NCBI GenBank assembly: GCA_000165345.1
Contig: CM000436.1
Coordinates: 512,001-576,000 of the forward strand
Direction: 5' to 3'
Length of the DNA stretch: 64,000 nucleotides
Position 1 is the first letter of the stretch, and each line of letters starts with the position of its first letter. Shown here one piece after another: positions 7,686 to 50,081 of the stretch. The notes under the pieces are model-generated. The model had not been told where the DNA came from, did no database searches, and saw nothing but the letters and a program-made list of their open reading frames with translations. Position numbers and translations under genes: made by a program.

Positions 7686-7895
7686 TTCATAGCATATTAG
7701 TTTGACTATTTCCTCCTTTTTGTATTCTAATGGATTGACTATTTTCTCCTCCTTTAAGCCTAATAGTTTGAACATGTCCTCCTCCTTTCATAGCCTAAAA
7801 GTTTGACTATTTCCTCTTCCTCTTTATATTCCAATTGATTGACTATGTCCTCCTCTTTTCATAGCCTAATAGTTGGACTATAATTTCCCCTCTCT
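7686..7895. repeat. Degenerate minisatellite of about 6 tandem copies of a 34-36 bp unit, consensus roughly CATAGCCTAATAGTTTGACTATTTCCTCCTCCTTT. It lies in the spacer between the GCN1 3-prime end and the PMI 5-prime end.
   Basis: Read directly. The units start near 7686, 7720, 7754, 7789, 7826 and 7860. Each has a (G/A)TTTGACTAT core followed by a polypyrimidine TCCTCCTCCTTT (GAGA-like on the opposite strand). Confidence 0.8.
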
Positions 7896-7980
7896 CATAA
7901 CTCTTTCATAGTTATATAAATCACTATCATGATTAAAATGTATAAACAACATTTCTTTCTTAAAATTCCCAATTTAATTA

Positions 7981-10900
7981 TCAATTAATAGCTTTGGACA
8001 AAACTCTTCTAGAATATTCTTTAATAAAGTTAACTTTTTTTTGATTTAAATGACCAGGATAAATTTTCTCAATAACATTAATTATATCAGAAATCACCAA
8101 TTCAAATTGAGAAAATTCTTCATCATTTATTCCTTTATTATTGTCATTTTTGTTAATCATATGTTGATCTTCATCTTCTCTTAATTTAATTATTAATTTT
8201 ATTAAAAATACTAAAAATTGTTCAGCTTTAAGCTTAATAGCAGGAAATTTTGAACTTAAAGATTGTATTGAAGGAAGTGATATAAGTGAAAAAAGAATAT
8301 CTTGTGATGAAATTTGATCATTACTTTTAATTCTGGAATCAATATCGGATTCTTTAATGAAATTTCCAAAAGAATAACATGATAAATTAGAATCAATTTG
8401 TTGTATAAATAGTCTTCTAGAATCTTTGGATTCCACAATCTTCTCACAAATCTTTTGAATCTCAAGAATCATATGAGTATCTGAAAAAGATGGGAATAAT
8501 ACAAGTATATCCTTTTCAAAAATTAAAGGAATTACTTGAAGAACTATTGAAGCAGAAAATATATCATTATTATCAACTGATATTCTTGTTAAATTATTTA
8601 AGAAATTTAATGATAACTTTCTTAATTGAGTATAATTGGATGAATTCTGGAAATTATTATTTTCAATACAAACTAAATACTTGTATAATAAAATAACAAT
8701 CTTTTTATAAATCCACCAACTTTGATGTTTTAAAATTTCATCTGGAAGTCTTCTACCTCCTATCATAAATTCCCTGTTCTTCATACTCAAATAATTATCA
8801 ATATTTTCAAATAAACTTATTTCTTCTTCCTTTTTCTTTTCCTCTTCTTCTTCCCTTTCCTCTTCATCTCCTAAAGTAGATATAATATCTTTATCCAAAT
8901 TACTCAATGAAGAATACATCTTAATCCAACCATTAGATTCACAACAACTATTGAAAATATTGAGTATATTCTTATCATGATTAAATTGACAACCATTTTG
9001 ATTATTAAATATTAATAATGGAATTAATATATCCTTAATTTCATCATCTTTACAATAATTCATTAATATTGAAGAAAGAATCTGTCCAGAAATGTCCTTA
9101 ATTACAATATCTTTTGATTCTTCTATACAAGATAAAGACATTCCTATTAATTTATTTCTAAGTGATTCTGATATTACTGGTTTTGTTTGATTTTCTACTA
9201 ATTGATCTCGAGAATTTGTTAGTAATGAATAATTAATTGATGATAATATAGCATTCATTGATTCTCCTGATTGATTTTGTTTACTTGCTAATGAACATAA
9301 ATCATTTAATAATACTTCAGCTCTATTTCCAAGTAATCTTGATAAAAATCCAATTCCATTACTACATTGTTTTCTAACATTATCATTTGGATCTAACAAA
9401 AACTTTACCAAAATTGTTTGAATCTGTGGTAATAATGGACGTAATTGTAATCCACAAAACTCTAAAAATATTACCAAATTACTCAATAAAGCTCCTCTTA
9501 CCAAAGATGATGTTGTTCTATCTGAAATAGATCGTATTAATGGACCAACTAATTTAACTGTTATTGGTTTTAAACATTCATTATTTGTTAATTGAATTGC
9601 TTCACGTAAACCTATTGCACATTCTTCTTTTGAATCTACTGATCCTTGTGATATTCCTTGTATATATATAGCTGAGATTGAATCAATAAGTTTATTACTA
9701 GATATTAAAAGCTCATCATTTTTAGATCTTTCTAACATTTCTTCTTGGTTCATATTTGATTGTACTACTTTACAATTAAGAATCTTCCAATTATAACCAA
9801 TCAATTTATTCTCATCAAAATGTTTCTTATTATCAATTGGATCATGAACCAATATACCAATAGATTCCTTCATTACATTACACACTTGAATGATAGATTT
9901 TCTTGGAACTGAAATTGAAAACAAATAAAAAGATTTAGATGCTGATATTCTGACTTGTTCTGATATATCACACAAAGCTAAAGGTATTAAATACTTTATT
10001 AATATTGAAATTGATGTTTCATATATTGTACTTGAAGCATATAATGATAGATTCAAAAATTCGATTGCTTTAATCCTCATTAATGTTTCTCTTTCAACAA
10101 CTAATTCATTTAAATCATTAATATTTAAATTTTCAATTTGATATTTTCCAGAAATACTTAAATTAGTACTTGGAGTATTTTCACGTATAATATCCAATAA
10201 TATTGTAGCAAATGTCTCCATACTTTGAGCTTCTAATGATTGTACAATACTCATCATTGCTTCTTTTGAAGATTTTTGTATATAATCATCATATTTACCA
10301 TCAATATTTACAGTAGTTTCTAATAATTTTGGAACAATATCAAATAATGAAGATCTTAACCTGTTTTGAGATGGTATATTTGACATTGATTTAATTATCC
10401 TAATCTTATTAATTGTCATAGGATCAGAAATAATTCTTGGAAGTATATTAGAAACTATCCCAGGATGAGATAATTGAATAATAAGTTCTATAGCTGAAAT
10501 CTTTGGATCTTCATCTTCTTCATTATTATCTTTTGATTCAAGTATTTCATCCATTAACCAATTAATAATTGAAAATAGAATTTCAGTATTTTCAGATGCA
10601 AATATGTCTAAACATTCAACTGAATATGTTCTTACCATAATATCTTCATCACATAATCCAATTTTAACAACTGGTAAAAATGATGAAGTTAAACCTTTCA
10701 ATTCGCTCTTTCTTACATTCTTTAAAATCTCCAAAACACCAATACAAGATCCAATCCTTACTGATTTTTTTGGTAACGCATTTCTTCCTGTATTACAAAC
10801 TCCTCCTTTTCCAAAAGAGATGGAATTCGAGCTAGAATCTAAATCTATAGTACCATCCTCACTTAATGATCCTCCCAAATTCTGATAGAATATTGGCAAT

Positions 10901-13900
10901 AATTTATTGTATAGTGAACTCCCAAACTTGTCAAGTAAATCCTTTAAACTTTGAACTGCTATATAATGTATATTTCCACTACTAGATGTTGATAAAGCAT
11001 TGATAATTCTTCTGATTAGAATTGTTAATATATCTTTCAATGTTTGTGGAGTATTTTGCACTAGTGATTTCCATAAAGCAGTAGCACTATTCTTAACTGA
11101 TGTATTTTCATCACTTCTAGCCATATATATTGCTGCCAATATGTAAGATCTTCTATGCATTGAAAATCCTGAATCTTCAATTGCTGATGTATCTGTACTT
11201 AAAGCACGTCCACTAGAGTCCAATTGACCTTTTATTAACCTATTAAGTAAAGTACCCAAAAGTGAACAACTACTTAATCTGACTCTCCAACTATCATTCC
11301 CCAGTCCTTCCTCTAATGGTTGTAGAATATAAACGGCATGATCACTCCCAAACTGCACTACCAAAGCTTTACAAGCTTTAAGAGCTACTTCTCTCACAGA
11401 ATCTGACTCATCTCCCAATCTAGATAATAAAATCGGAAGAATCTTTGGCATTAATGGACCCAAATCATCGCCAAAAGATTGAGGTAAATATACAAATAAA
11501 CCAATGTAACCCTCTCTAGTGCTTGCTGCTGCTGCAACTGAAGTAGAAGCAGAAGTAGTTTCTATCATTGAATCAGATTCCAATCTTTCTTCTTGATTTT
11601 CAAATTGAGATGAGCTATCATCTCCACTTTTCTGGATCTGAGAAATAATAAAAGGAAGAATCTGGTTAAACTTTTCAATACCAAAAGCCGATAATACCTC
11701 AGCTAAAGAAGCTGATACTCCACTCTTCAATGTTTGTCCAACTTCCATTGATAATGTTTTGAAAAGCCAACTTAATAAAGAAGATGCTTTTTCTTGGCCA
11801 GTAACTGTTACTAATGCTCTGCATAATTTTGCTGTTAATAATCTTATTTCAGGTATAGGATCTGTTAATGTATTATGTATTGAATTCTCAATTAAATACA
11901 AGAAAGGATCAACATCTGTTTTGTCACTCAATAGTAAAAGCAAAGATGTCAAGATTTGTATAGCATCCTTTTTTAAATCTGTGCCTCCTCTTTCTTGAAT
12001 AGTTTTTAGTAAAACTGGGAATATTAAAGATAAAGTTGTAATATCAATAGCATGGACAAAAGTAACCGACTTTAAAGACAATAGAGCTTTTTTGAAATTC
12101 AACTCTGTTGGATCTATTAAAGAAGTTATCAGATCTTGAGATATACAATTCACCTCTGGGTTCTTTATTAAAGAAGCCATCTTGAAAAGAGTCTCTCTTG
12201 CTGCATCTGATACTTTTGGATGTGAATCTGAAGTTGTTTGATATATTGTTTGTATTGCCTTTGGTAAATATGATGATAATTGATGGGGTGAATTTAATGC
12301 CATAATTCCTAGTAATTGAAGGCTCGTTAATTTAATTCTCCATTGTTTTTCCTCTATACCTTCTGTTATTATTGGTAAGATTAATCTCGCTCCATATCTT
12401 GAGAGGTTCTTGATAATAATTTCTGCAGACTTTTCAGAATAAAAACGAATCCTTTGATCGTTTCCTGAAAACAAATGCATTATAGACTTTAAGAAATGTA
12501 CTGTATAAGGTTCAATAATATACTCTAAATATAAACTTAATGAACCAATACAAAGCAATAATCCCTCCAAATTATTTGATTCAGCACTTTTCTGACCATC
12601 TTGACATTTTAATGCATTTTCAATTGCTTCCAAAATACCAAAATCTCTTAATTTTCTCACAGAAATTCCTTTACTTAATGAGCCAAATATATGTGCAGCT
12701 CCTATTCTCTCTCCAGAATTTTCAGAATATAAAGCCTTACACAAAGAAATACAATAAAGCTCATAAACTGATAGCTTTTCTTCTCCTCTTGATAAATCTT
12801 CAGAATCTATCTTATAATTCAAATACTTATTCTTATCCAAGTCCTCAAATCTGGTAATTCTCAACTCTTGCTTATTTTCTTGATTATTATAAAGCATTTC
12901 AAATAATCTTGGAAGAATTCTAGAGTATTCTTGAGGAATATCTGTAAGCATTGGGAATTGTATTTTTGAATTTGAATCTGATAAACCGTTATTTTGATTG
13001 CTTTTTCTTACTAATGATCCACTAAGTAACTCATTAATTATCTTAAATGTAACCTTGTAAACCATTGGATCAGAAGGAGAACAACATGATGCTATACTAC
13101 CAATAGCAAATGCAAGAGAATTATGAAATTCCTTTGGATTAATTCTTGGCTTGTATTGTGATGATAAATCTCTTAATATAATCAATATATTAGATGAAAG
13201 CTTCTGTATATCATTTCTAGAAGATAAAGAGACAAAAAATTCAACAATTACTTTTTGTAACTCTTCCTTACTTCTTATATCATATCCTTGAATCTTAATC
13301 TTCTCTGGAGAATCCTGTTTATTGCCAAAACTACCAACCAAATTCTTTACTGTCTTCTTTTCCTTACTTTTGATATTCCCATTTGTCTCTTCTGATGATA
13401 ATCTTTCCCCTTCAGAAATATAATCCTCAAATATATTAGAATCGATAATTTTGGTGAGAATAAAATGGATTGATTCTTCTATAAAGGATGAATCAGATTC
13501 ATCCAACTTTATAATAAGATCAGATAATATCAAAACTAATCCTTTCAATGCATGTCTAGCTTGAATTCTTGAGACGATCTTTTCTAAACCGCTTTCAGTA
13601 AAATTTGGTATTACTGAATCAAAATGACGTATTGTACTTGGTACCATACCTGAAATTAATGGTTTTTTCAAATTATTTGGCCAATCTTCTTTTGAAAAGA
13701 TTCTTCTCTTTTCAAAGCCATTAAATACTCTTTCTGAACTTGCTATCACTATTTCCACAATCTCTGAACAATTTTCCTTTTCAGATAATCTTAATATTGT
13801 TTTTGAAATATTTTTTTGTTGTAAAGTTGAAATTACTGGTACCATTTGAATCTCAATCAAATCATTCACTAACTTCTTATTCTGGTCACCAATATTCAAC

Positions 13901-16900
13901 TCACCTTTGTTTCTTACTAAACTATTATACATTTCAATTAATTCTTCAGTTATGCTTGAAATTAATGATAAATCATCAGAAAAAGAGCCATTATTTGGGT
14001 GAATATCAAATATCTGAATCTCTCTGGCTATACTTAAATTCATAAAGGTAAAGTAACTTATTTCCATCTTTGAAATATCTAAAGCTCGCTTTAACGAGTC
14101 CAATGTCAATAATCTAACTTGTGGATTAGCAAACACTAGTAATGAAGATACTAAATCCATCTCAACCATATTTATTGGTCTCAATTCTGACAATGAAACC
14201 TTTAAAGGATGTAAATACTGGTCTAAATCAACCAAATCACCAAGTGCTAACACATATAAATACAGCATATTCAATAATTGTGCCATTGAAACTTTTAATC
14301 CATTATGTTTTATTGAGCCAGATAAATATTGTATCAAATGTGTAACCATTTGTATCTGCTTGTCTGAATCGGCTCCCCTCTCCTTACAATTACTATAAAG
14401 TACTCTGGAAATAATATATGTCAATACTGAAACACCACTTGAGTTCTTTAAATAATTCTGCACAGAATTTAACCTCTTGGAATTTACAGAATCCAAAATC
14501 TCTTGTAAACACATATTTCTATTCTCATCATCTTGTTTTGATAAGTATTCAACCATACTCCTTCCTAACTTAATATTCTCTAGTATTAATCTTTCAAATA
14601 AATTCTCCAAAATACTTAATCCATATTGATTTAATGGCTTAAACTCTAACATCTTACTACATATAGAATACAAAATTTCAGATAATTCTAAATCCATTTT
14701 ATGAACATCCTTACTCTCCTCTACTAATTCTGATATCCAACTCATTAATACCCCAACCATCACTTCTACTTCATTCTTTATTCTTGAAATTATCTTATTT
14801 GCACCTTTCCTTATATTATTCTGCTCTATTAATTTCTGTTTCAAAATCTCCACTTTTGTCAAATTATTACCGCCGGTGCTATTATTTACACCCAAACCTG
14901 CATTGCATGTGGACAAATTATTACCGGTATTTGAATTTGCATGACTTCTTGCATTCATGTTATTTGCATGTGAGGTGGTAGTTTTGGGGGCCTTGGCGCC
15001 TTTTGATTTGTTGTCAGCTTGAGACTTCCTGAGTTTAGCAAGTGCAAAGGCGGATGTAGTTGTTACATTTGTGGGAGTAGAAACTTTGGGCTTTGTTACG
15101 CTAGAAGTAGTGCTTGAACTCGAGTTTTTCGTATTTGATTCTGATTCTAAGTCCTTGTTTTTTATTGTCGATTGTTCGTTTAATTCTTTGTTATTATTTA
15201 TAGAGGAAATATTCTCTAAATTTGAGAGTGTACTGTTGAGCCAATGTGATGAGTTTGCTAAGGAGTTATAGAAATCAGAAAATTCATCATATCTTTGCTC
15301 ATTACTTGTGAAAGATTTTAATTTTGTAGATATATTACTTTGTATGTCTTGTATAAACCCTTTATCAGAGTTTTGAGATGCTCCTATATTTATATCAAAC
15401 TCAAAAACTTGATTTGGATCAGATATCATGAAATTACCAAATTCTAACGGCAATTCATTGAGAAATTCTAAAGAATTTATGAAATCTATTTTAAGCTCTT
15501 CTATTAAACTTAAAGTCAATCTTGAGTCTCTAGTTAATGTAATAATATTTAAAAGATTCAAACCTGCACTTCTAAATCCGGATACGTCATTTAATGGAAG
15601 AAATATCAAATCTCTATATAATTCAATGAATTTTTTATTCATTCTTTCCTTTACTTCATCTGATTTATTCCATTTATTAACCAAATCATTAATCAATGTT
15701 ACATGTAATAACTCATTCTTATTATTTAAAAAACTTTTAAATCCAGAATTCATTGTTTTTGGTCCTGAATATATTAGAGGATGGTAACTGCAAAGTAAGA
15801 AAATCAAATAATATGAATATCCTATGTTAGAAGGATCTCCTTTTGAGATCATTTCTAAATTCCCCAAAAAAACCCAAACTTTAAATAAATCCATTCTAGA
15901 TAACATTAACTCATTGTAAATCTCATTCTCCACTATCCCTTCTTCTCTTCTCTTATAGATTAAAGAATTTAATGAGCTTAAAATAGTGGCAAAAGAAAGA
16001 ATCAAATTTTGACAGAAATTCTTATCATTCAATAATAAGCTTTTCCTTTCACAATTTGAGAATGGGAACCGCTTCTCTTGTATCTTAGAACTATCTTCAT
16101 TACACAATCTATTCATAATAGGCTTTTTTAAGCCTGGAAGCATTAAGCTGGCCTGAAAAGCCTCCATATTTACCGCCGAATATTGAGAAATTGAATAACT
16201 TAAATCCTCTTCATCTGATAAAAACGATAAAACTCTACCCATTTGAATTAAAAAGCTAATTAAATAATTTGCTGAATTGATTTTACTCGGATCTGATAAT
16301 TTTAATAAATAAGACTTTAAATCCATAGATTCTTCTTCCTTATTATTCTGGAAATGTATATTAAAATTAACCTTGGAGTTCTCATTGAATACTATTTCTC
16401 TTAGAACTATTAAAATGTTAACTTCAGCATTCCTACAACTATTCGAACAAAAGCAATAACTTCCATCTAATAAAGTTCCTAATTTAGGAAACAACAATGG
16501 TGAAGTTCGAATGCTTGAAACAATATCCAGACTCTTAAATATGTTAGTTTCATCAAAAACATCTTGAATTGATATAATTTGACCTAAAACTGTCATAGAA
16601 AGCTTTTTCAAGTTCATATTCTTATTCAAAGTTGATACAAAAATTCCTGATATATGATTATTAGAGATTAATATTTGTTTTACTTTTGATTTATCAAACA
16701 AGTTAGAATCATTTGTAATTCCAAGCTTTTTAAGTAATATAATAGAATGAGTAAATGATGATATTACCAAGAGCTTGCAGCTCTCATTAATTGATGGATC
16801 ACTAATCAAAGACTGAACTTTCTCAAGGAATTTATCTGAAAAAGGATGATTCTTAGATCCATTTAATAATAGATAAGATAAAGAACAAATATGTACAGCT

Positions 16901-18168
16901 AAAGACTTGAAATAGTCCGATGATTGATTAGATATCATGGGAAGCTTAATATATATTAATGATAATAATAGATCTTGAGCTTTATTAGTAAGATTATAAT
17001 TAACAGGAATTCCTTCAATTCTGTATCTTGCAAGACTTTCATGAACTGATCCAATAATTAACAATAAAGAAACTTTGTTTTGATCATTAGTTTTGTTTGA
17101 TGAAATAGCTAATATTGTTTCCTCAATCCATTCCTGAAAGTTGAAATGGCTTGGTATTAGTTGAAAACACAAATTAAGAGAATTTTGGATGATTTGAACA
17201 TCTTCAAAGTTTTGATCAGTCTTACCATTATTCGAAATCATAGTACCAATCGAACCTGAAATTGTTTCAGATAATATAGAAATTAGCTCCATTAGTACTT
17301 CCTCCTTTTGTAAGTGGCTTATAATATTTTGGTGGGTAAAAATTTCTAATAAACTTAATTGAGTTAAAGGCTTAGAAGTATTTCTTTTTAATTGTCTCAA
17401 TAAAGAATTAACCAAAAGGTTCAATTCATGATTATAATTTGAAAGAATCTTCAACATTGATTTTAAGCTTAAATTAAAACAGTAATCAATATCAGAAGCA
17501 ATAATACTTGATAAGCCATTAACTATTCCCAAAATTAGTTCATTTGTTAAGGTCTGATCAGAATTTATATGTTCTATATAATACAAAACAATATCAAAAA
17601 CCAACTTTTGTTGAAAACTCAGCTTTTGTGAGCTATTAATTCCAGAAATTTCTACAAGTACCCAATTCTTCCATGTGTCTTTGCTAAATAGTTCAAAGTA
17701 TTTTGAAAATAAGCTCACAATTAATTTATATTCACGCCTTTTTAATGAATGTAAATAATGAGAATGTTCAATACTGATAGATTTCAAAATTTCTAGAATT
17801 CGTTGTTTTGATATTTCATCGAGATTTCCTCCATTCTTTAATGATAGAAATCCCTCAAATAACCAAAAGCTTGCTATTAACGTATTGAATTTATTAGATA
17901 ATGACAAAAAGCATTCCAAGAATACTGATTCATCATTCTTTCTCAGCCAAATACCAAATCTATTAAGGAACTTGATCCAAATGTTTCTATAAAATTTATC
18001 TTGGATCAATCCAACTTTCTGTCCCAAGATCTCAATTTCAGCAAATGCCTTTCTCAAGATCTCCTCTTTTTCTTCTTGTAAGAAAATTTCTAAATCTGGG
18101 ATAATTTTTACATTACTTCCATTTTCGAGTAATTTCTCGTTTTTAATTAAATCTGTTTCTGATTCCAT
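7981..18168 (-). CDS. GCN1: GCN1 (eIF2alpha-kinase activator / ribosome-binding HEAT-repeat protein), a giant about 3395-aa version.
   Basis: The HEAT-repeat architecture runs throughout. A diagnostic block, VREVALKACKALVVQFGSDHAVYILQPLEEGLGNDSWRVRLSSCSLLGTLL, matches human GCN1 [51 protein letters not shown]. The ORF-track start at 18183 is a TTG. The first in-frame ATG (MESETDLIK...) is at 18168-18166. Confidence 0.8.
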   Translation of the reverse strand: MESETDLIKNEKLLENGSNVKIIPDLEIFLQEEKEEILRKAFAEIEILGQKVGLIQDKFYRNIWIKFLNRFGIWLRKNDESVFLECFLSLSNKFNTLIASFWLFEGFLSLKNGGNLDEISKQRILEILKSISIEHSHYLHSLKRREYKLIVSLFSKYFELFSKDTWKNWVLVEISGINSSQKLSFQQKLVFDIVLYYIEHINSDQTLTNELILGIVNGLSSIIASDIDYCFNLSLKSMLKILSNYNHELNLLVNSLLRQLKRNTSKPLTQLSLLEIFTHQNIISHLQKEEVLMELISILSETISGSIGTMISNNGKTDQNFEDVQIIQNSLNLCFQLIPSHFNFQEWIEETILAISSNKTNDQNKVSLLLIIGSVHESLARYRIEGIPVNYNLTNKAQDLLLSLIYIKLPMISNQSSDYFKSLAVHICSLSYLLLNGSKNHPFSDKFLEKVQSLISDPSINESCKLLVISSFTHSIILLKKLGITNDSNLFDKSKVKQILISNNHISGIFVSTLNKNMNLKKLSMTVLGQIISIQDVFDETNIFKSLDIVSSIRTSPLLFPKLGTLLDGSYCFCSNSCRNAEVNILIVLREIVFNENSKVNFNIHFQNNKEEESMDLKSYLLKLSDPSKINSANYLISFLIQMGRVLSFLSDEEDLSYSISQYSAVNMEAFQASLMLPGLKKPIMNRLCNEDSSKIQEKRFPFSNCERKSLLLNDKNFCQNLILSFATILSSLNSLIYKRREEGIVENEIYNELMLSRMDLFKVWVFLGNLEMISKGDPSNIGYSYYLIFLLCSYHPLIYSGPKTMNSGFKSFLNNKNELLHVTLINDLVNKWNKSDEVKERMNKKFIELYRDLIFLPLNDVSGFRSAGLNLLNIITLTRDSRLTLSLIEELKIDFINSLEFLNELPLEFGNFMISDPNQVFEFDINIGASQNSDKGFIQDIQSNISTKLKSFTSNEQRYDEFSDFYNSLANSSHWLNSTLSNLENISSINNNKELNEQSTIKNKDLESESNTKNSSSSTTSSVTKPKVSTPTNVTTTSAFALAKLRKSQADNKSKGAKAPKTTTSHANNMNARSHANSNTGNNLSTCNAGLGVNNSTGGNNLTKVEILKQKLIEQNNIRKGANKIISRIKNEVEVMVGVLMSWISELVEESKDVHKMDLELSEILYSICSKMLEFKPLNQYGLSILENLFERLILENIKLGRSMVEYLSKQDDENRNMCLQEILDSVNSKRLNSVQNYLKNSSGVSVLTYIISRVLYSNCKERGADSDKQIQMVTHLIQYLSGSIKHNGLKVSMAQLLNMLYLYVLALGDLVDLDQYLHPLKVSLSELRPINMVEMDLVSSLLVFANPQVRLLTLDSLKRALDISKMEISYFTFMNLSIAREIQIFDIHPNNGSFSDDLSLISSITEELIEMYNSLVRNKGELNIGDQNKKLVNDLIEIQMVPVISTLQQKNISKTILRLSEKENCSEIVEIVIASSERVFNGFEKRRIFSKEDWPNNLKKPLISGMVPSTIRHFDSVIPNFTESGLEKIVSRIQARHALKGLVLILSDLIIKLDESDSSFIEESIHFILTKIIDSNIFEDYISEGERLSSEETNGNIKSKEKKTVKNLVGSFGNKQDSPEKIKIQGYDIRSKEELQKVIVEFFVSLSSRNDIQKLSSNILIILRDLSSQYKPRINPKEFHNSLAFAIGSIASCCSPSDPMVYKVTFKIINELLSGSLVRKSNQNNGLSDSNSKIQFPMLTDIPQEYSRILPRLFEMLYNNQENKQELRITRFEDLDKNKYLNYKIDSEDLSRGEEKLSVYELYCISLCKALYSENSGERIGAAHIFGSLSKGISVRKLRDFGILEAIENALKCQDGQKSAESNNLEGLLLCIGSLSLYLEYIIEPYTVHFLKSIMHLFSGNDQRIRFYSEKSAEIIIKNLSRYGARLILPIITEGIEEKQWRIKLTSLQLLGIMALNSPHQLSSYLPKAIQTIYQTTSDSHPKVSDAARETLFKMASLIKNPEVNCISQDLITSLIDPTELNFKKALLSLKSVTFVHAIDITTLSLIFPVLLKTIQERGGTDLKKDAIQILTSLLLLLSDKTDVDPFLYLIENSIHNTLTDPIPEIRLLTAKLCRALVTVTGQEKASSLLSWLFKTLSMEVGQTLKSGVSASLAEVLSAFGIEKFNQILPFIISQIQKSGDDSSSQFENQEERLESDSMIETTSASTSVAAAASTREGYIGLFVYLPQSFGDDLGPLMPKILPILLSRLGDESDSVREVALKACKALVVQFGSDHAVYILQPLEEGLGNDSWRVRLSSCSLLGTLLNRLIKGQLDSSGRALSTDTSAIEDSGFSMHRRSYILAAIYMARSDENTSVKNSATALWKSLVQNTPQTLKDILTILIRRIINALSTSSSGNIHYIAVQSLKDLLDKFGSSLYNKLLPIFYQNLGGSLSEDGTIDLDSSSNSISFGKGGVCNTGRNALPKKSVRIGSCIGVLEILKNVRKSELKGLTSSFLPVVKIGLCDEDIMVRTYSVECLDIFASENTEILFSIINWLMDEILESKDNNEEDEDPKISAIELIIQLSHPGIVSNILPRIISDPMTINKIRIIKSMSNIPSQNRLRSSLFDIVPKLLETTVNIDGKYDDYIQKSSKEAMMSIVQSLEAQSMETFATILLDIIRENTPSTNLSISGKYQIENLNINDLNELVVERETLMRIKAIEFLNLSLYASSTIYETSISILIKYLIPLALCDISEQVRISASKSFYLFSISVPRKSIIQVCNVMKESIGILVHDPIDNKKHFDENKLIGYNWKILNCKVVQSNMNQEEMLERSKNDELLISSNKLIDSISAIYIQGISQGSVDSKEECAIGLREAIQLTNNECLKPITVKLVGPLIRSISDRTTSSLVRGALLSNLVIFLEFCGLQLRPLLPQIQTILVKFLLDPNDNVRKQCSNGIGFLSRLLGNRAEVLLNDLCSLASKQNQSGESMNAILSSINYSLLTNSRDQLVENQTKPVISESLRNKLIGMSLSCIEESKDIVIKDISGQILSSILMNYCKDDEIKDILIPLLIFNNQNGCQFNHDKNILNIFNSCCESNGWIKMYSSLSNLDKDIISTLGDEEEREEEEEKKKEEEISLFENIDNYLSMKNREFMIGGRRLPDEILKHQSWWIYKKIVILLYKYLVCIENNNFQNSSNYTQLRKLSLNFLNNLTRISVDNNDIFSASIVLQVIPLIFEKDILVLFPSFSDTHMILEIQKICEKIVESKDSRRLFIQQIDSNLSCYSFGNFIKESDIDSRIKSNDQISSQDILFSLISLPSIQSLSSKFPAIKLKAEQFLVFLIKLIIKLREDEDQHMINKNDNNKGINDEEFSQFELVISDIINVIEKIYPGHLNQKKVNFIKEYSRRVLSKAIN

Positions 18169-18442
18169 CAAAAAAACATCCAAATCAGGCTTTCTTTATT
18201 TTTTTTTTTTTTTAACCTCGTAAACTTGAAAAGTTACTTTACTTCCAATTGGATGGATCTATGCCTGTGAATAAAAAATATCCTACTTAGAAGTACCAGA
18301 TCCTTCAAGTCCACCTACTAACCAAACCTAGTCTGTTTCTTGAATTTACTATTTAATTTACCTTTATCAATTCTAATTTTTTTTTCTTAAATATATATTT
18401 TGATATATACGATACCCCTTCCCCCCACCGCTTCTGACGATC

Positions 18443-25484: not shown

Positions 25485-27194
25485 ATGACAGGTGCTGACG
25501 AGTTTATGTATGGAGATAATACATGTAGGTTCTCAAAAACTCCTCAGAATATCCTAATAATTAAGAGACCAAAATCTCCAAATTCAACAATATTAGCAGT
25601 GGAACTATCTGTCTCTTTAACTAAAGTGTATGATGCTGTTGTATATTGCGAAGATGAAGCTATAAGTGACATGAAAGCTATAAATCCTGAGCTAGAACTA
25701 AATTCGATATCCCAAACTAAAGTTGATTTAGGTGAGATGATTGATCTTGCAATTTCACTGGGTGGGGATGGAACATTACTTTGGTTATCACACTTATTTC
25801 AAACATCAGTTCCTCCTGTAATAAGCATTGCAATGGGATCTCTTGGTTATATGTCCTTATTTCACTACTCCAAGGCTAATGAAATTATTGATAGAATTAT
25901 GAGGAAACAGACTTTTGCAGTTTCCTTAAGATCAAGACTAACTCTTTATATTCCTCAAGAAAATGGAGATACACTACAAACTTCTTGTTTAAATGAGTGT
26001 GTGTTTGAAAGGGGAAGCAGACATTGTCTTGCCTCCATTGATGTCTATTGTTCTGGAAGCTACTTTACAAGAGTATTTGCCGATGGCTTAATTCTAGCAA
26101 CACCCTCTGGATCTACGGCATATTCAATGTCAGCAGGTGGAAGTATTGTGCATCCCAAAGTTTCTGGAATACTCTTCACTCCTATTTGCCCACATACATT
26201 ATCTTTTAGACCAGTAATACTACCAGGTTCAACAGAACTTTTGATTCATGTTCCAGAATCATCCAGAGATGGCGTCCAGGTTGCTTTGGATGGAAGAAGA
26301 GTTGCAGAACTAAGGATTGGTCAGTTTGCTGCAGTTACAATGTGTTCATACCCTCTTCCTTTGGTAATTTGTCCACAAGTTTTTGATTATAGAGAAAGCT
26401 TAAGTCCAGGATTAGAATTAAGAAGTAAAAAAATAATTGACTCCACCTACACTTATCAAGATATTCTTCAAAGTATACGAGAAGCAAAAACTATGAACTC
26501 TTTGGGAACTGATGAGCATTGTATTTATTCAAATGATAGTCAAATTTTTGTATGTCCATGCTGTAGAAAACCAGATAGTTGTTTTTGTGGGATTGAAAAA
26601 GATGTTAATATTAATCAAGAAAATGATTTTAAAGAAAAAGGACTTTTATACAAAGAGGACTATTGGTTGGATTGTTTAAATAATTATTTGGACTGGAATT
26701 CTCAGAGAGCTGCTCAAATTCCTATAGACTTACAGGAAACTGTTTCTGGTAGCAAATACTCAGAGTTTCAGTCAAACCTAAGTAAAAAAAGCAATGGATC
26801 TAGTCCCAGAAGCCTTAATAATACAGATAGAAAGATTGCGCCTCCTGAGACTTTAAAGTTTCTTGAGAAAGTAAGAGTAATTTGGAAGCATGATAATGAA
26901 TTTAAGCACGAATGTCTACCTGACTTTAATAATTCAGTGACATGTTTAAACTCAAAAATCAGGTATCCGTCACCTCTTACAGCAAAAACTCCAGATAACT
27001 TATGTTCAACTACTTGTAGAAACAAGATGGAAAATTCAATCTCCATGCAAATAAATGCAACAGATTTTGACTCGTGTAATTGGAGTCAAAAGAGTAATAA
27101 TACGGATTCCACAGCCAAGTCTAATAAAAGTAAAACTCCCTTCTTTACTCCTGTAAAAATTCCAGGTGTAATAATCTTAGATCGTAAACTATAA
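25485..27194 (+). CDS. NADK: NAD+ kinase (ATP-NAD kinase) with a long C-terminal Cys-rich extension.
   Basis: GGDGTLL (the GGDGT signature). IAMGSLGYM compares with the NGSLGFL motif. DGLILATPSGSTAYSMSAGGSIVHP compares with [25 protein letters not shown]. Confidence 0.85.
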   Translation: MTGADEFMYGDNTCRFSKTPQNILIIKRPKSPNSTILAVELSVSLTKVYDAVVYCEDEAISDMKAINPELELNSISQTKVDLGEMIDLAISLGGDGTLLWLSHLFQTSVPPVISIAMGSLGYMSLFHYSKANEIIDRIMRKQTFAVSLRSRLTLYIPQENGDTLQTSCLNECVFERGSRHCLASIDVYCSGSYFTRVFADGLILATPSGSTAYSMSAGGSIVHPKVSGILFTPICPHTLSFRPVILPGSTELLIHVPESSRDGVQVALDGRRVAELRIGQFAAVTMCSYPLPLVICPQVFDYRESLSPGLELRSKKIIDSTYTYQDILQSIREAKTMNSLGTDEHCIYSNDSQIFVCPCCRKPDSCFCGIEKDVNINQENDFKEKGLLYKEDYWLDCLNNYLDWNSQRAAQIPIDLQETVSGSKYSEFQSNLSKKSNGSSPRSLNNTDRKIAPPETLKFLEKVRVIWKHDNEFKHECLPDFNNSVTCLNSKIRYPSPLTAKTPDNLCSTTCRNKMENSISMQINATDFDSCNWSQKSNNTDSTAKSNKSKTPFFTPVKIPGVIILDRKL

Positions 27195-27374: not shown

Positions 27375-28612
27375 CTATTCATGGGACTCCAACTCCCATA
27401 TAGAATATTTACCGTCAAAACCATAACAAACCAAAGTTGATGGGTTTGGAACCAAAACCTTCATTATCGGTCTCTTATGCACTGAATTCTGAGTATAATG
27501 TTTTATTGGGTCAAAATTCAATTGCCATACTGGGTCTAAATAATTTGGCAATATGGCGCCATTTAGCGTGGTTGCATGTGTCCACATGCAACCATTTGTT
27601 TGCATGAATAACACCGGTATGCAGTCATGTCCGACGGCGGCCAACAGATTTTCATGCACAAATTTTAAATTAATTAGGGGCAATCCATTCCATTTAAGGG
27701 AAGAGTTTAAGAATTCTAATTTTTTACTAATTTGTGTAAAGTAAAGAAATGAATCCTTATCGGTGAAAGCTATTTGGTTTCCCTTGGGACTGAAATCGCA
27801 AGCCATTATGGCGTTTTGACTATTAATTGATGAAAGGGCTTGAAGAGAAAGAGTTTCTGACGAGTTTTCATCGAAATTTTCATCTTTGAAGTTAGAATCT
27901 TCAATTGAGACTCCAAGAATAATGCCCTTATTTTCAAGCCCACCGCATGCAAGGAACTTGCTGCTATTACTCCAAGCTAAGCATGTAAGAGGGAGCTCAG
28001 AAAGTCCAATTTTAAGTTGGTCAAATACATACAAATCTCTCTGTTTAGCTTCAGAGAAAGAAGTTTTCTCGTTTTCCAAGCCTGAATTTTTTTTAGAAGT
28101 AAAGAAGAATACTTCTCCAGAAGTTGTGGATACTGCAAAACTACAGAACTCTTGAAATGGGGAGATTCTACAAAATGTCGGGTAACAATCTGATTGGATA
28201 CAGTTTAATATAGAAGAAACAATCACCAGCTTTTCAGAAAAACTATCTTTTTCTGCCTCTACTTTGAGAAGCCATACGATAACGAGACGATCTTCTCCAA
28301 CTGAAACTAGCTGGCTATAAGAAGAATCCAACGAGTACTTTGTAGGAAGTAAGGACCAGTCTATTGAAACTATTCTGTTCCTATGCTTTGATAGCTTTGC
28401 CAGAGAGTTGCTTGGATGTAATCCATTAAGCTGATAAATTTTAATATTTCTCTTTTCACATACCAATGAAATATCTAAAAAGAACAAAAAGTCAAGTCAA
28501 ATCAAATCGTCAAGAGCCACTCATTCAGAGTCTAAAACTTACATTTCAAATTCGGATGAAAGCCTATCCCAGTAATGCTGGTTTCCAATTGCTTATCAAT
28601 TAAAAGCTTCAT
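27375..28612 (-). CDS. ARPC1: ARPC1-like WD40 protein (Arp2/3 complex p41 subunit homologue), two exons: join(28612..28543, 28474..27375), about 389 aa.
   Basis: LPLINLKFVHENLLAAVGHDCIPVLF compares with human ARPC1 [41 protein letters not shown] compares with CTTGMDGGMSIWDVKSLE. The ORF-track start at 28487 is TTG. The real N-terminus MKLLIDKQLETSITGIGFHPNLK is in a 70-nt upstream exon (ATG 28612). The 68-nt intron has a GTAAGT donor and a TTTTTAG acceptor. It restores ISLVCEKRNIKIYQLNG, which compares with ARPC1 [29 protein letters not shown]. Confidence 0.75.
28475..28542 (-). other. 68-nt spliceosomal intron (phase 1) of the ARPC1-like gene.
   Basis: The minus-strand donor is AAAT|GTAAGTTTTAG and the acceptor is TTGTTCTTTTTAG|ATATTTCA. 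Splicing joins a conserved N-terminal exon in frame. Confidence 0.7.
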
Positions 28613-28799
28613 TTCTCTCAACTTATTCCTTCATTAACTCAGTCTGAAACTCAGCAAAAACCACCTTTTGATTCAGACTATATAAATTGAAAGCATCCAG
28701 TTCAGTCTATACTTACTCTGCTATTTCCCTATTCCATCCGTTAGCCAACTCTTTTCCCACTCTAACTTGTGGGATTATTTATATTGTGGTACTCAACTT

Positions 28800-28831
28800 A
28801 GGGCGCCAAGTGTGGAGCCTGATTTGGCGGT
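28800..28831. promoter_or_regulatory. E2F-like pair GGGCGCCAAG ... GATTTGGCGG in the ARPC1 / dynamin-like bidirectional promoter.
   Basis: GGCGCC and GGCGG cores lie between the divergent starts at 28612 (-) and 28950 (+). Confidence 0.5.
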
Positions 28832-28949
28832 AATACAAATCAATATTGCATGAATTTATGCACAAGAAAAGTCTCAATATAAAGAATTTGATGATTTCAA
28901 AGTTTATATATTTTTAAAAACTTTTTTAGATCAGAAAACTTTGTTTTAA

Positions 28950-35313: not shown

Positions 35314-35594
35314 TGATGCCTTAAAATGTATTAAAATTGTATAATTTCTTTTGTTTAATTTCTTCCTAAATTTGTAATTGTTTTATCGTTCTTACTGAAA
35401 GCAGCTTCAATAATGCGACTGCATATTTTTTTTCATTCTTTCTTCACTTTTTACATCTCAACTCACTTCGCCTATTCTCTCTCGAATTCTTTAATCACTA
35501 CCCGTATATTTAATTTTTTAAATAGCTGTCATGCATGCATTAATCATTTTTCTTCTTTGTAATTTTATGTGGACTGCATGTACAAAAAAATTTA

Positions 35595-35656
35595 ATACCG
35601 GCGTGCAAATGATTTGGCAAAAAAAAAAGTACACGTCATTGCATGCGTTGCAAATA
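35595..35656. promoter_or_regulatory. Composite module ATACCGG-CGTGCAAATG ... ACACGTCAT-TGCATGCG-TTGCAAATATG.
   Basis: The same element types (TATACCGG-like, TGCAAAT, CACGTCAT/ATGACGTG, GCATGC) occur as at 41008-41063, here in the opposite orientation. The location is the spacer between the NAT10 start and the NAA60-like gene 3-prime end. Confidence 0.45.
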
Positions 35657-35789: not shown

Positions 35790-36662
35790 CTAATTCTTAG
35801 GGAGTTTGGATGAATTAGAAATGAACTTATTAATATAATTAAAAAGGCCATATTTCCTTCTTTGATCAGCTTGGAAATTGGAACCAATATCAATGTAACT
35901 ATCAAACAAATTTGTAGAATCTGATCGATCATAATTGTAGGAAAAGAGATAAGAGCCATAAAATCCGTCCAAGATTTTGTAAAAGTTATTCCAATGGAGA
36001 ATTTCTTCAAATTTAAGACGTCTATACAAGTTAATTGCGCTTGAATTATAATCAACAACATGAAGAAATAATGCATTAACTGTTGGGCTGAATTTCTGAT
36101 AATATCCTATTACAGTATTTAAAAGTTGTTTGGCAATCCCAAGAAACCTGAACTCTTCGACTACTCCCATTGTTAAAATATAAACCAGATATTTGTAAAC
36201 ATTCACCCCAAATGGAGATGGACTAATTTCAAAACTTTCATCTTGAATTTTCTCACGTAACTCTTGTAATAAAAATGGTTCAGGTATACTCTTAATCACA
36301 TGCTTATAATCATTATCTTTAATAATTCTACAATCTTGAGAAGTTGTAACAAATCCGATAATCAACTCATCGCTTTCAAAATAACTGGATTCTAAACTCT
36401 CTCTAAGCCTCCAAACAGCTACCCAGCCGTGAGTTATTCCAGAAGCAATGCCTTCGTAAAATTGTTTATCGTAAACTATTGGAAAGAGCTCCTTATGAAG
36501 CTCTTCGAGCTGAGCAACATCCTCAGGAATTACTCTTCTAAAATCAATAATTGGATTCTTTGTAGGGTTTTCATGTTTCCAACCCTGGTAAACATCGTGG
36601 ACTCTACTGCATTTAGCTGGATTCTTAAGTTCTGGAGGAAAGGCTGAAGATATAGTAGTCAT
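35790..36662 (-). CDS. GNAT-family N-terminal acetyltransferase, NAA60 (HAT4)-like.
   Basis: LHKELFPIVYDKQFYEGIAS compares with human NAA60 LCGDWFPIEYPDSWYRDITS. VYILTMGVVEEFRFLGIAKQLL compares with AYILSLGVVKEFRKHGIGSLLL. ALFLHVVDYNSSAINLYRRLKFEE compares with AIYLHVLTTNNTAINFYENRDFKQ. The overlapping ORF 35636..36076 looks spurious. Confidence 0.7.
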   Translation of the reverse strand: MTTISSAFPPELKNPAKCSRVHDVYQGWKHENPTKNPIIDFRRVIPEDVAQLEELHKELFPIVYDKQFYEGIASGITHGWVAVWRLRESLESSYFESDELIIGFVTTSQDCRIIKDNDYKHVIKSIPEPFLLQELREKIQDESFEISPSPFGVNVYKYLVYILTMGVVEEFRFLGIAKQLLNTVIGYYQKFSPTVNALFLHVVDYNSSAINLYRRLKFEEILHWNNFYKILDGFYGSYLFSYNYDRSDSTNLFDSYIDIGSNFQADQRRKYGLFNYINKFISNSSKLPKN

Positions 36663-49973: not shown

Positions 49974-50081
49974 TGATTTAATTCGAATTTAATTTCATCT
50001 TCTATAATTAACTAACTTTAAATTAATTGAACTAATTTTTTTTATTTAAGAAATTTCTTCAATTCATGACAATTGAAATGC

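What the first reader, a model, noticed from the sequence alone, without database searches (positions are those of the whole stretch)
27551..27650. Promoter-like motif cluster, including a perfect 9+9 palindrome, embedded inside the ARPC1 coding exon
Within 100 bp of ARPC1 exon 2 (minus strand) several motifs appear. One is an E2F-like ATGGCGCCAT. One is the perfect inverted repeat TTGCATGTG-tc-CACATGCAA (27571-27590). Others are TTTGCATG and ACACCGGTATGCAGTCATG (the CCGGTATGCA box seen in intergenic promoters). A GC-rich CGACGGCGGCC is also present. The region still encodes the most conserved ARPC1 block (HDCIPVLF...). So the DNA appears dual-use. It could be an internal or antisense promoter, a regulatory element for the downstream NAD-kinase 3-prime region, or a constrained coincidence. 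The plus-strand ORF 27553-27744 is in the alternative frame of this GC-rich patch.
Basis: seen in the sequence. Interest (0 to 1): 0.5.

Follow-up and report, generated by a model that had tools for sequence, protein, structure and literature searches.

The report
Promoter-type motif module inside ARPC1 exon
A 90-base stretch near the end of the Cryptosporidium parvum ARPC1 gene both encodes a conserved protein block and carries a packed set of the parasite's promoter motifs, whose silent codon positions are unusually conserved between species, so it is probably a regulatory element (likely an internal or antisense promoter) hidden in coding DNA, a kind of arrangement already described for this compact genome.

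Summary
Window 27553-27644 lies in exon 2 of C. parvum ARPC1 (minus strand). It holds an exact E2F octamer TGGCGCCA, a perfect inverted repeat that is 12+12 rather than 9+9 (27569-27594), three TTGCATG-type sites, GTGTCCACATG, ATACCGGTGT and a second E2F-like GGCGGCC.

These words are 10-25 times commoner in intergenic than in coding DNA of this window. E2F, TTGCATG and GTCCACATG match motifs published upstream of C. parvum antisense lncRNAs.

Part of the cluster is forced by the protein: Met-Trp-Thr always gives ATGTGGAC. The rest needs rare codons (GGC, GCC, CCG, TGC). In 11 Cryptosporidium orthologues, motif codons show 11 synonymous changes against 19 expected (p about 0.002). Spacer codons in the same block show no deficit.

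A second four-motif cluster sits inside a GCN1-like gene (14866-15000). It is the local peak of nucleotide conservation against C. canis.

No transcript could be shown. The held parts of the lncRNA supplement list none here, and the two most distant lineages lack the cluster.

Verdict: probably a functional DNA-level module embedded in coding sequence, most likely an intragenic promoter. It is a new member of a known kind, of moderate interest.

The parts
27553..27562 (.). E2F/DP-type palindrome ATGGCGCCAT (core TGGCGCCA). It is read on the minus strand as AAT GGC GCC ATA (Asn-Gly-Ala-Ile), using two rare codons: GGC is 6% of Gly codons and GCC is 10% of Ala codons.
   Evidence: 4 copies in the window against 0.05 expected; the other 3 copies are intergenic; codon usage. 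GGC is kept in all 10 species that keep Gly, and GCC in 8 of 9 that keep Ala.
27569..27594 (.). Perfect 12+12 inverted repeat TGGTTGCATGTG-tc-CACATGCAACCA. It consists of two inverted TTGCATG(T) sites of the lncRNA-upstream 'ApiAP2' motif type. It encodes Gly-Cys-Met-Trp-Thr-His-Ala-Thr.
   Evidence: near-identical instances (AGTTGCATGTG, GTTTGCATGTG, GGTTGCATGAA) are listed in Table S3 of PMC7840661.
27578..27588 (+). GTGTCCACATG, a match to the published lncRNA-upstream motif 5 (TTGTCCACATK). It overlaps the centre of the inverted repeat. On the minus strand it is part of TTGCATGTGGACA, a 13-mer shared with the second intragenic cluster at 14903. The core ATGTGGAC is forced by Met-Trp-Thr.
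   Evidence: motif 5 and the identical instance listed for Cp_lnc_353, which is a different locus..
27597..27606 (+). Third GCATG site, TGTTTGCATG. It continues as TTTGCATGAATAA, a 13-mer also present at 926-938. It encodes Phe-Met-Gln-Thr on the minus strand.
   Evidence: (repeat I4).
27611..27620 (-). It encodes Ile-Pro-Val-(Leu) with the rare codons CCG (4%) and GTG (11%).
   Evidence: 3 exact copies, and 5 within 1 mismatch against 0.59 expected. ATACCGG at 0.59/kb intergenic against 0.06/kb coding.. ATACCGGT is kept in 9 of 11 orthologues.
27632..27644 (-). Second E2F-like site, TTGGCCGCCGTCG. It encodes Leu-Ala-Ala-Val with two rare GCC codons and flanks the cluster on the far side from the first E2F site.
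   Evidence: GCC at 27641 is identical in 6 of 8 lineages and at 27638 in 5 of 8; a similar instance, TGGCCGCCATT, is listed in Table S3. This site was not counted as motif in the conservation tests.
27375..28474 (-). ARPC1 exon 2, including the stop codon. It is the host coding sequence of the module, which lies 176-270 nt upstream of the last base of the stop codon (27375).
   Evidence: the block AVGHDCIPVLF aligns with AAGHDCCPMLF of human ARPC1A.
28543..28612 (-). ARPC1 exon 1 (ATG at 28612-28610). The canonical promoter region is shared with the divergent dynamin-like gene (28613-28949) and has its own E2F-type sites.
   Evidence: GGCGCC at 28802.
27553..27744 (+). It is judged not to be a gene.
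   Evidence: the frame is interrupted by stop codons in the chipmunk genotype, C. ubiquitum, C. canis, C. felis and C. bovis.

Best explanation
The 27553-27644 stretch is a composite cis-regulatory module written into the coding sequence of ARPC1.

Its layout is an E2F/DP site, then a cluster of ApiAP2-type TTGCATG sites arranged as a 12+12 palindrome. That palindrome overlaps a GTCCACATG box. An ATACCGGTGT box and a second E2F-like site follow.

The protein needs the amino acids: GHDCxPxLF is conserved in ARPC1 from other eukaryotes. The regulatory reading is carried by the choice among synonymous codons, several of them rare (GGC, GCC, CCG, TGC, GTG).

The most likely activity is that of an intragenic promoter, possibly bidirectional. 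It would be of the type that drives the many antisense or overlapping non-coding transcripts of this compact genome. Such a transcript would either run on the plus strand antisense to ARPC1, or run on the minus strand out of the ARPC1 3' end into the antisense of the convergent NAD-kinase gene.

Shown here: the motifs, their intergenic bias, their match to published lncRNA-upstream motifs, motif-specific synonymous conservation, and a second conserved intragenic module of the same composition.

Inferred: protein binding, open chromatin, transcription initiation and its direction.
For: 1. Motif identity.
- TGGCGCCA is the most over-represented upstream motif of C. parvum (PMC3734150).
- E2F motifs dominate ATAC-seq peaks in sporozoites (PMC11761812).
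- The 100 bp upstream of 396 lncRNAs (363 of them antisense, biased to the 3' end of the sense gene) yield TTSSCGCCWAA, ANTTGCATGYA and TTGTCCACATK (PMC7840661). The region carries instances of all three.

2. Genomic bias in this window.
- GGCGCC: 12 intergenic, 2 coding (1.01 against 0.04 per kb).
- ATACCGG: 7 intergenic, 3 coding.
- All the coding hits of GGCGCC and GTCCACAT, and two of the three coding hits of ATACCGG, fall in just two places: this one and 14866-15000.

3. Codon shuffles that keep every protein and each gene's codon pool.
- A four-class cluster anywhere in about 52 kb of coding DNA arises in 0.75% of 2000 trials.
- Two such clusters never arise.

4. Eleven orthologous ARPC1 sequences.
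- Motif codons show 11 synonymous changes against 18.95 expected after matching for degeneracy (p=0.002). Spacer codons of the same block show 25 against 22.5.
- The C. parvum codon is kept in other lineages at 82% of rare motif codons against 52% of rare codons elsewhere (p=0.003). For common codons the figures are 87% against 62% (p=0.002).

5. The second module lies in a low-complexity linker of a GCN1-like protein.
- It keeps ATACCGGT and TTTGTCCACATGCA unchanged in C. canis.
- It is the nucleotide-identity peak of a 1.5-kb alignment: 0.80 against a mean of 0.60.

6. Position. The module sits in roughly the last quarter of the CDS (176-270 nt from the end of the stop codon in a 1170-nt CDS), which matches the 3' bias reported for antisense lncRNAs.
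Against: - No RNA or chromatin data could be examined. No lncRNA overlapping ARPC1 or NAD kinase, and no upstream-motif entry matching this locus, was found in the held parts of the Li et al. supplement. Those files are truncated, so this is weak negative evidence.
- Much of the cluster comes free with the protein. ATGTGGAC is forced by Met-Trp-Thr. CAT-GCA and ATG-CAA are common codons. With only the three published motif classes, shuffles recreate a cluster in ARPC1 in 4.6% of trials.
- The unbiased sliding-window scan of synonymous identity peaks exactly here (0.68 against 0.55), but that maximum is not significant after correction for scanning (p=0.20).
- Conserved rare codons also occur elsewhere in the gene.
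- The motif set was delimited after looking at the C. parvum sequence.
- The E2F, ATACCGG and GTCCACAT elements are all absent in the two most distant lineages, C. bovis and the SRR31860995 contig. GTCCACAT is also lost in C. ubiquitum, C. canis and C. felis.
- No exact TGCATGCA is present in C. parvum.
Confidence: 0.55

Rival explanations
1. Coincidence plus protein constraint. The amino-acid sequence of a highly conserved ARPC1 block happens to spell promoter-like words. The apparent synonymous conservation reflects general constraint or low divergence in the most conserved part of the gene, combined with post-hoc choice of motifs. The DNA has no regulatory role.
For: - Met-Trp-Thr forces ATGTGGAC, and His-Ala and Met-Gln give GCATG words with the commonest codons.
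- Shuffles give an E2F+GTCCACAT+GCATG cluster in ARPC1 in 4.6% of trials.
- The scan-wide maximum of synonymous identity has p=0.20.
- 13 of the 18 rare codons identical in at least 6 of 8 lineages lie outside the region.
- The GC3 peak is seen in C. parvum and one relative but not in C. canis, C. felis or C. bovis.
- The cluster is absent in the two deepest lineages.
- No transcript is known.
Against: - Spacer codons inside the same conserved block are not conserved at synonymous sites (25 changes against 22.5 expected). Motif codons are conserved (11 against 19, p=0.002). A regional effect does not explain this difference.
- The E2F and ATACCGGTGT words need four rare codons in a row-wise combination. 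From the codon frequencies I estimate their joint probability by hand at about 0.005 x 0.0009; this is my own arithmetic, not a tool output.
- A second four-class cluster in an unrelated gene never appears in 2000-3000 shuffles, and it is conserved in C. canis within a poorly conserved linker.
Confidence: 0.27
2. RNA-level element in the ARPC1 mRNA or in an overlapping transcript. The 11-bp hairpin formed by the palindrome, or repeated UGCAUG words bound by an RNA-binding protein, would affect translation, stability or 3'-end formation. That would be the source of the synonymous constraint.
For: - The palindrome folds as an 11-bp stem with a 4-nt loop in both the MFE and the centroid structure on either strand.
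- A perfect 12+12 repeat of this composition is expected about 0.05 times per window.
- It lies 195-220 nt from the end of the stop codon (27375) of a gene whose 3' end converges on NAD kinase, with 180 nt between the two coding regions.
Against: - Folding energy of the 111-nt region is not unusual (z = -1.3 and -0.9).
- There is no Rfam match.
- The long stem is not kept in C. ubiquitum, C. canis, C. felis or C. bovis beyond what the short GCATG palindromes give. No compensatory changes are available to test.
- A hairpin does not explain conservation of the E2F and ATACCGGT words. It also does not explain why the same words are strongly intergenic and promoter-associated in the window.
Confidence: 0.1
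3. Transcription-factor binding without local initiation. The module would be an enhancer-like or boundary element housed in ARPC1 that tunes a neighbouring promoter: the ARPC1/dynamin-like bidirectional promoter 1 kb away, or NAD kinase.
For: - The evidence for DNA-level constraint is the same as for the best explanation.
- NAD kinase is the only neighbour kept next to ARPC1 in all species. The upstream neighbour differs: it is dynamin-like in the C. parvum group, the chipmunk genotype and SRR31860986, and NAT10/TmcA-like in C. ubiquitum, C. canis, C. felis and C. bovis.
Against: - Distal enhancers have not been described in Cryptosporidium. This rests on my own knowledge and on the review PMC12246861, which does not mention them.
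- The same motif classes are reported immediately upstream (within 100 bp) of transcript starts.
Confidence: 0.07
4. The plus-strand ORF 27553-27744 encodes a small overlapping protein.
For: An ATG-initiated 63-codon ORF exists. It starts in the E2F palindrome.
Against: The frame contains stop codons in five of the seven lineages outside the C. parvum group. Three members of the C. parvum group also have a slightly earlier stop.
Confidence: 0.01

Closest known systems
Upstream regions of C. parvum antisense lncRNAs (Li, Baptista, Sateriale, Striepen and Kissinger 2021, PMC7840661)
   Same: - Same organism.
- Those promoters necessarily lie inside or at the 3' ends of coding genes.
- Same motif vocabulary within about 100 bp: E2F/DP TTSSCGCCWAA, ApiAP2-type ANTTGCATGYA and TTGTCCACATK, with frequent co-occurrence of the last two.
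- The published lncRNAs show a bias toward the 3' part of the sense gene, which this module shares.
   Different: - No transcript is known here, and the locus was not found among the held parts of their lists.
- That paper did not examine codon-level (synonymous) constraint or conservation of the motif sites.
- The ATACCGGTGT box corresponds only loosely to their motif 4, which is dominated by one tandem repeat.
Canonical C. parvum E2F/DP promoter element (Oberstaller et al. 2013, PMC3734150; ATAC-seq peaks in PMC11761812)
   Same: Exact TGGCGCCA core with A/T-rich flanks. The other three copies in the window sit in intergenic promoter regions.
   Different: This copy is inside a coding exon about 1 kb from the nearest gene start. 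Those studies deliberately excluded coding sequence from their motif searches.
Dual-use codons ('duons'), meaning transcription-factor sites within exons. This comparison is recalled from my own knowledge of Stergachis et al. 2013 and the later debate, and was not checked here.
   Same: Coding nucleotides that also match transcription-factor recognition sequences and show reduced synonymous variation.
   Different: The human claim rests on genome-wide footprints and is contested. Here there is one locus (plus one more) with comparative evidence only and no binding data.
Second intragenic module in the same window (14866-15000, GCN1-like gene)
   Same: - The same four motif classes within about 135 nt, flanked on both sides by E2F-like sites.
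- It shares the 13-mer TTGCATGTGGACA.
- It is conserved in another species.
   Different: - It lies mid-gene, about 3.2 kb from the 5' end of a 10.2-kb ORF, in a low-complexity linker where the protein imposes little constraint.
- The order of the ATACCGG and GTCCACAT boxes is reversed.

Membership tests
E2F/DP binding site of Cryptosporidium | Sequence: symmetric [C/G]GCGC[G/C] core, consensus TGGCGCCA, flanked by T- and A-rich sequence. | tested here: met
   ATATGGCGCCATTT at 27551-27564. The exact octamer occurs 4 times against 0.05 expected. The definition comes from PMC3734150.
E2F/DP binding site of Cryptosporidium | Location in a non-coding upstream region or accessible chromatin. | tested here: not met
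   The site lies in ARPC1 exon 2, 1050 nt from the ARPC1 ATG. Accessibility is not testable with these tools.
E2F/DP binding site of Cryptosporidium | Bound by the E2F/DP heterodimer. | not testable with these tools
   This needs ChIP or CUT&RUN, or an in-vitro binding assay.
ApiAP2 'AP2_1' site (BGCATGCAH / TGCATGCA) | Full palindromic GCATGCA core. | tested here: not met
   There is no TGCATGCA or GCATGCA in the C. parvum region. Only TGCATG half-type words are present (TTGCATGTG, CATGCAAC, TTGCATGAA). C. canis and C. felis do have ATGCATGCA at the homologous place.
lncRNA-upstream motif 2 (ANTTGCATGYA) of Li et al. 2021 | Match to the published motif instances. | tested here: met
   GGTTGCATGTG (both arms of the palindrome) and GTTTGCATGAA were compared with the listed instances AGTTGCATGTG, GTTTGCATGTG, GGTTGCATGAA and ATTTGCATGAA.
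lncRNA-upstream motif 5 (TTGTCCACATK) of Li et al. 2021 | Match to the published motif instances. | tested here: met
   GTGTCCACATG at 27578-27588 is identical to the instance listed for Cp_lnc_353, which is another locus. Caveat: the core is forced by Met-Trp-Thr.
Promoter of an antisense/overlapping lncRNA in C. parvum | A transcript whose 5' end lies within about 100 nt of the motifs. | not testable with these tools
   No RNA-seq or 5'-end data are available. Searches of the held, truncated supplement with 18-mers from ARPC1, NAD kinase and the spacer found nothing.
Promoter of an antisense/overlapping lncRNA in C. parvum | Position toward the 3' end of the sense gene. | tested here: met
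   The module lies 176-270 nt upstream of the last base of the ARPC1 stop codon (27375) in a 1170-nt CDS. The 3' bias is described in PMC7840661.
Functionally constrained non-coding signal within a CDS (dual-use codons) | Synonymous sites under the signal evolve more slowly than matched synonymous sites elsewhere in the gene. | tested here: met
   11 changes against 18.95 expected (p=0.002), with spacers at 25 against 22.5. Codon retention is 0.82 against 0.52 for rare codons and 0.87 against 0.62 for common codons. Caveats: the scan-wide window test gives p=0.20, and the motif boundaries were set after inspecting the sequence.
Structured RNA element | Folding more stable than shuffled controls, with conserved pairing or a known family match. 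| tested here: not met
   z = -1.3 and -0.9. There is no Rfam hit at E of 1 or less. The stem is not maintained in divergent species.

The most novel reading that the evidence does not exclude
The E2F - TTGCATG - GTCCACATG - ATACCGGT(GT) combination may be a distinct, recurrent class of intragenic promoter module in intestinal Cryptosporidium.

Two or three copies lie inside annotated coding sequence in a single 64-kb window, which would imply on the order of a hundred or more genome-wide. Each would impose measurable codon-level constraint on its host protein gene. The GTCCACATG and ATACCGGT boxes would be recognised by factors that have not yet been assigned.

These modules would then be the physical basis of the parasite's widespread antisense transcription. 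They would also be a case of regulatory code shaping codon choice in a eukaryote with almost no intergenic space.
Probability: 0.3. Interest if true: 0.6.

Novelty: new member of a known kind. Interest (0 to 1): 0.42.

Why it matters
About 10% of C. parvum genes have antisense transcripts of unknown function. Motif studies in this parasite have excluded coding sequence by design.

This locus and the GCN1-like one are concrete, testable cases. Promoter-type sites sit inside exons and appear to be maintained by selection on silent codon positions.

If confirmed, three things would follow:
- Regulatory annotation in Cryptosporidium would have to include exons.
- Some synonymous sites in this genome would not be neutral, which matters for population-genetic and dN/dS analyses.
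- The GTCCACATG and ATACCGGT boxes would become candidates for binding sites of unassigned transcription factors.

It is not a new principle, and the gene concerned has no special medical relevance.

Tried and rejected
1. Annotated lncRNA at the locus. I searched the held supplement of PMC7840661 for gene identifiers, for motif strings and for 18-mers from ARPC1, NAD kinase, the spacer, the GCN1-like cluster and two intergenic modules. Nothing was found. The files are truncated, so this is not decisive. The one identical motif-5 string (Cp_lnc_353) belongs to a locus with other motifs that are absent here.

2. ATAC-seq and long-read tables of PMC11761812. No supplement is held.

3. Antisense ORF 27553-27744. 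Rejected, because stops interrupt it in orthologues.

4. RNA structure or a known RNA family. Energy z-scores are unremarkable and there is no Rfam hit.

5. Whole-region synonymous conservation by sliding window. The peak falls exactly on the region but is not significant after scanning. The signal became clear only when motif codons were separated from spacer codons.

6. Conserved GC3 patch. Present in C. parvum and one relative only, so a shared compositional island is rejected.

7. First protein search for orthologues of the GCN1-like segment. It failed because of low-complexity sequence. The second search gave only a C. canis fragment, so the second cluster could be compared with one species only.

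8. The window-wide repeat tool listing was dominated by A+T-rich imperfect palindromes. It was replaced by an exact count.

9. Literature searches for ATACCGG- or GTGGAC-type words in the two Oberstaller papers found nothing.
Full report
**What the window is.** The 370-codon minus-strand ORF at 27375-28487 is 100% identical to Cryptosporidium parvum 'actin-related protein 2/3 complex subunit 1'. The annotated copies sit on records of 1.34-1.38 Mb. The gene has a 70-nt first exon (28612-28543), a 68-nt intron and a second exon (28474-27375). Joining the exons reproduces the 389-aa protein. NAD kinase (25485-27194, plus strand) converges on its 3' end with 180 nt between the coding regions. A dynamin-like gene (28950 onward, plus strand) diverges from its 5' end.

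**The observation.**
- ATGGCGCCAT is at 27553-27562.
- The inverted repeat is longer than reported: 12+12, perfect, 2-nt spacer, 27569-27594.
- A third GCATG word is at 27597-27606.
- ACACCGGTAT is at 27611-27620.
- CGACGGCGGCC is at 27632-27642.

The stretch is 49% G+C in a window of 29.7%, which puts it in the top 0.7% of 100-nt windows. The largest rise is at third codon positions: 0.545 against 0.334 for the gene. Perfect inverted repeats with arms of at least 12 and spacer of at most 8 occur twice in the window, against 0.175 expected from first-order Markov simulated sequences and 0.05 for arms this G+C-rich.

**Are these promoter words in this genome?** Yes, by two independent lines.

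The first line is the literature.
- TGGCGCCA is the most over-represented upstream motif of C. parvum (PMC3734150).
- E2F motifs dominate sporozoite ATAC-seq peaks (PMC11761812).
- MEME on the 100 bp upstream of 396 lncRNAs gave five motifs (PMC7840661). Of those lncRNAs, 363 are antisense and they are biased to the 3' end of the sense gene. The motifs are E2F/DP TTSSCGCCWAA, ApiAP2-type ANTTGCATGYA, poly-T, CCCATACCAGGTGGA and TTGTCCACATK.
- The region holds near-verbatim instances of motifs 1, 2 and 5. GTGTCCACATG is literally one of the listed instances, for another locus. The region also shows a loose resemblance to motif 4.

The second line is the window itself.
- TGGCGCCA: 4 copies against 0.05 expected, with the other three intergenic.
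- GGCGCC: 12 intergenic and 2 coding.
- ATACCGG: 7 intergenic and 3 coding.
- ATACCGGTGT: exact copies at 955, 27611 and 41010.

**An unexpected second case.** The few coding hits are not scattered. Both coding GGCGCC hits, both TGTCCACAT hits and two of the three coding ATACCGG hits fall in two places. One is the flagged region. The other is 14866-15000, inside a 3400-codon GCN1-like ORF. These are the only two places in 64 kb where all four motif classes co-occur.

They share the 13-mer TTGCATGTGGACA. They also share a layout in which E2F-like sites flank GCATG, GTCCACAT and ACCGGTAT boxes.

The second cluster encodes a low-complexity linker. Even so, in C. canis ATACCGGT and TTTGTCCACATGCA are unchanged. 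The cluster is the nucleotide-identity peak (0.80) of a 1.5-kb alignment that averages 0.60.

**How much does the protein force?** This point tempers the claim.
- Met-Trp-Thr always spells ATGTGGAC.
- His-Ala and Met-Gln give CATGCA words with the commonest codons.
- The block GHDCxPxLF is conserved in human ARPC1A.

I ran within-gene synonymous codon shuffles. With only the three published motif classes, an E2F+GTCCACAT+GCATG cluster reappears in ARPC1 in 4.6% of trials. With the ATACCGG class added, a four-class cluster appears anywhere in the coding DNA in 0.75% of trials. Two such clusters appear in none of 2000 trials. The GCN1-like cluster never arises in shuffles.

What is not free are the rare codons: GGC (6% of Gly), GCC (10% of Ala), CCG (4% of Pro), GTG (11% of Val) and TGC (24% of Cys).

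I fetched the orthologous loci of C. hominis, C. meleagridis, C. tyzzeri, chipmunk genotype I, C. ubiquitum, C. canis, C. felis, C. bovis and two unnamed Cryptosporidium contigs. I then built a codon alignment.

A plain 33-codon sliding window puts the gene's maximum of synonymous identity exactly on the region: 0.68 at 27557-27653 against 0.55 for the gene. The maximum is not significant after scanning (p=0.20). The a-priori interval gives p=0.018.

Separating motif codons from spacer codons sharpens the picture.
- The 17 degenerate codons whose third base lies in a motif show 11 synonymous changes against 18.95 expected after matching for degeneracy and depth (p=0.002).
- The 17 spacer codons in the same block show 25 against 22.5.
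- In the seven lineages outside the C. parvum group, the C. parvum codon is retained at 82% of rare motif codons against 52% of rare codons elsewhere (p=0.003).
- For common codons the figures are 87% against 62% (p=0.002).

The individual rare codons are kept widely.
- GGC is kept in all ten species that keep Gly.
- The TGC of Asp-Cys-Ile is kept in all eleven species.
- CCG is kept in nine of eleven.

Retention of whole words varies.
- TGGCGCCA survives in 8 of 11 species, including C. felis, whose protein is only 55% identical.
- ATACCGG survives in 9 of 11.
- GTCCACAT survives only in the C. parvum group and three relatives.
- C. canis and C. felis instead carry a full ATGCATGCA at that spot.
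- C. bovis and a further distant contig (SRR31860995) lack E2F, ATACCGG and GTCCACAT altogether.

**Alternatives examined.**
- The plus-strand ORF is broken by stops in five lineages.
- The palindrome forms an 11-bp hairpin, but the region's folding energy is unremarkable (z = -1.3 and -0.9). Nothing matches Rfam. The long stem is not kept in divergent species.
- A shared GC3 island is not seen outside the C. parvum lineage.

**What could not be shown.** I have no RNA or chromatin data. Searches of the truncated supplement of PMC7840661 found no lncRNA overlapping ARPC1, NAD kinase, the spacer or the other modules. The 2025 preprint has no held supplement. A later annotation is said to list 766 lncRNAs (PMC12246861), which I could not consult.

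The direction of any transcript is open, because the E2F site and much of the cluster are palindromic. One weak hint comes from synteny. NAD kinase is the only neighbour retained beside ARPC1 in all species. The upstream neighbour changes from dynamin-like to NAT10-like in C. ubiquitum, C. canis, C. felis and C. bovis. A role tied to the dynamin-like gene is therefore unlikely.

**Conclusion.** The most probable reading (about 0.55) is a DNA-level regulatory module embedded in coding sequence and maintained through codon choice. It would act as an intragenic promoter of the kind already described for C. parvum antisense lncRNAs.

The main rival (about 0.27) is that a conserved protein block happens to spell these words and the conservation signal is inflated by post-hoc motif definition.

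The finding is a new, unannotated member of a known kind. Its added value is the comparative evidence for silent-site constraint, together with the recurrence of the same four-motif grammar inside a second gene.

Noticed in passing
window 14866-15000 (minus-strand ORF 7981-18183, GCN1-like); L011 4960-5070: A second intragenic cluster carries the same four motif classes: TTACCGCC, TTGCATGTGGACA, TACCGGTAT, three TTGCATG and TTGGCGCC. It lies in a low-complexity linker of a 3400-codon ORF. In C. canis it is conserved and forms the local peak of nucleotide identity (0.80 against a mean of 0.60). No lncRNA was found for it in the held supplement.
   Followed up: partly
window 926-1077: A third cluster contains TTTGCATGAATAA, CATACCGGTGTT, TGCATGCATGCA, GCATGCAA and ATGTGGAC. 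It lies inside the annotated CDS of CPATCC_004011, whose ATG at 768 was confirmed by exact protein look-up. The cluster sits before the predicted transmembrane segment. Either the true start codon is further downstream, or this is another promoter-type module in coding sequence. It shares 12-13-mers with the ARPC1 module.
   Followed up: partly
window 50080-50200: The divergent intergenic region between genes 47832-49973(-) and 50370-52751(+) has a repeated dyad, ATCCACATGAAAAT[A/G][A/C]CGGTATAG (twice), plus GCACCGGTATGCAA. This suggests that the CCACATG and CCGGTAT boxes work as a pair with fixed spacing in some promoters.
   Followed up: no
window 35532-35640 and 55442-55503: GTCCACAT/ATGTGGA[C/T] plus ATACCGG pairs sit 90-260 nt beyond the stop codons of minus-strand genes (35790-36662 and 55592-60100). 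That is where promoters of 3'-antisense transcripts would be expected. No matching lncRNA was found in the held supplement.
   Followed up: partly
L002, L003, L007, L008 versus L001, L004-L006, L010 (upstream of ARPC1): There is a synteny break directly upstream of ARPC1. A dynamin-like gene lies there, divergent, in the C. parvum group, the chipmunk genotype and SRR31860986. A NAT10/TmcA-like gene lies there, on the same strand, in C. ubiquitum, C. canis, C. felis and C. bovis. The NAD-kinase side is conserved in all.
   Followed up: no
window 28613-28949: The ARPC1/dynamin-like bidirectional intergenic region carries its own E2F-type sites, GGGCGCCAAG at about 28800 and TTACCGCCAAA at about 28825. 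ARPC1 therefore already has a conventional E2F promoter in addition to the internal module.
   Followed up: no
L011 (C. canis GCA_027243965.1) 1774-11826: The GCN1-like gene of this C. canis assembly is annotated as several separate gene models (1339, 575 and 596 aa, plus an opposite-strand 521-aa model), although it is one long ORF in C. parvum. This is probably an annotation or assembly fragmentation.
   Followed up: no
window 60278-60310: This is the only other perfect inverted repeat with arms of at least 12 in the window: AATAATTAAGGTA, 13+13 with a 7-nt spacer, A+T-rich. It lies just upstream of the 5' end of the ORF 55592-60100(-).
   Followed up: no
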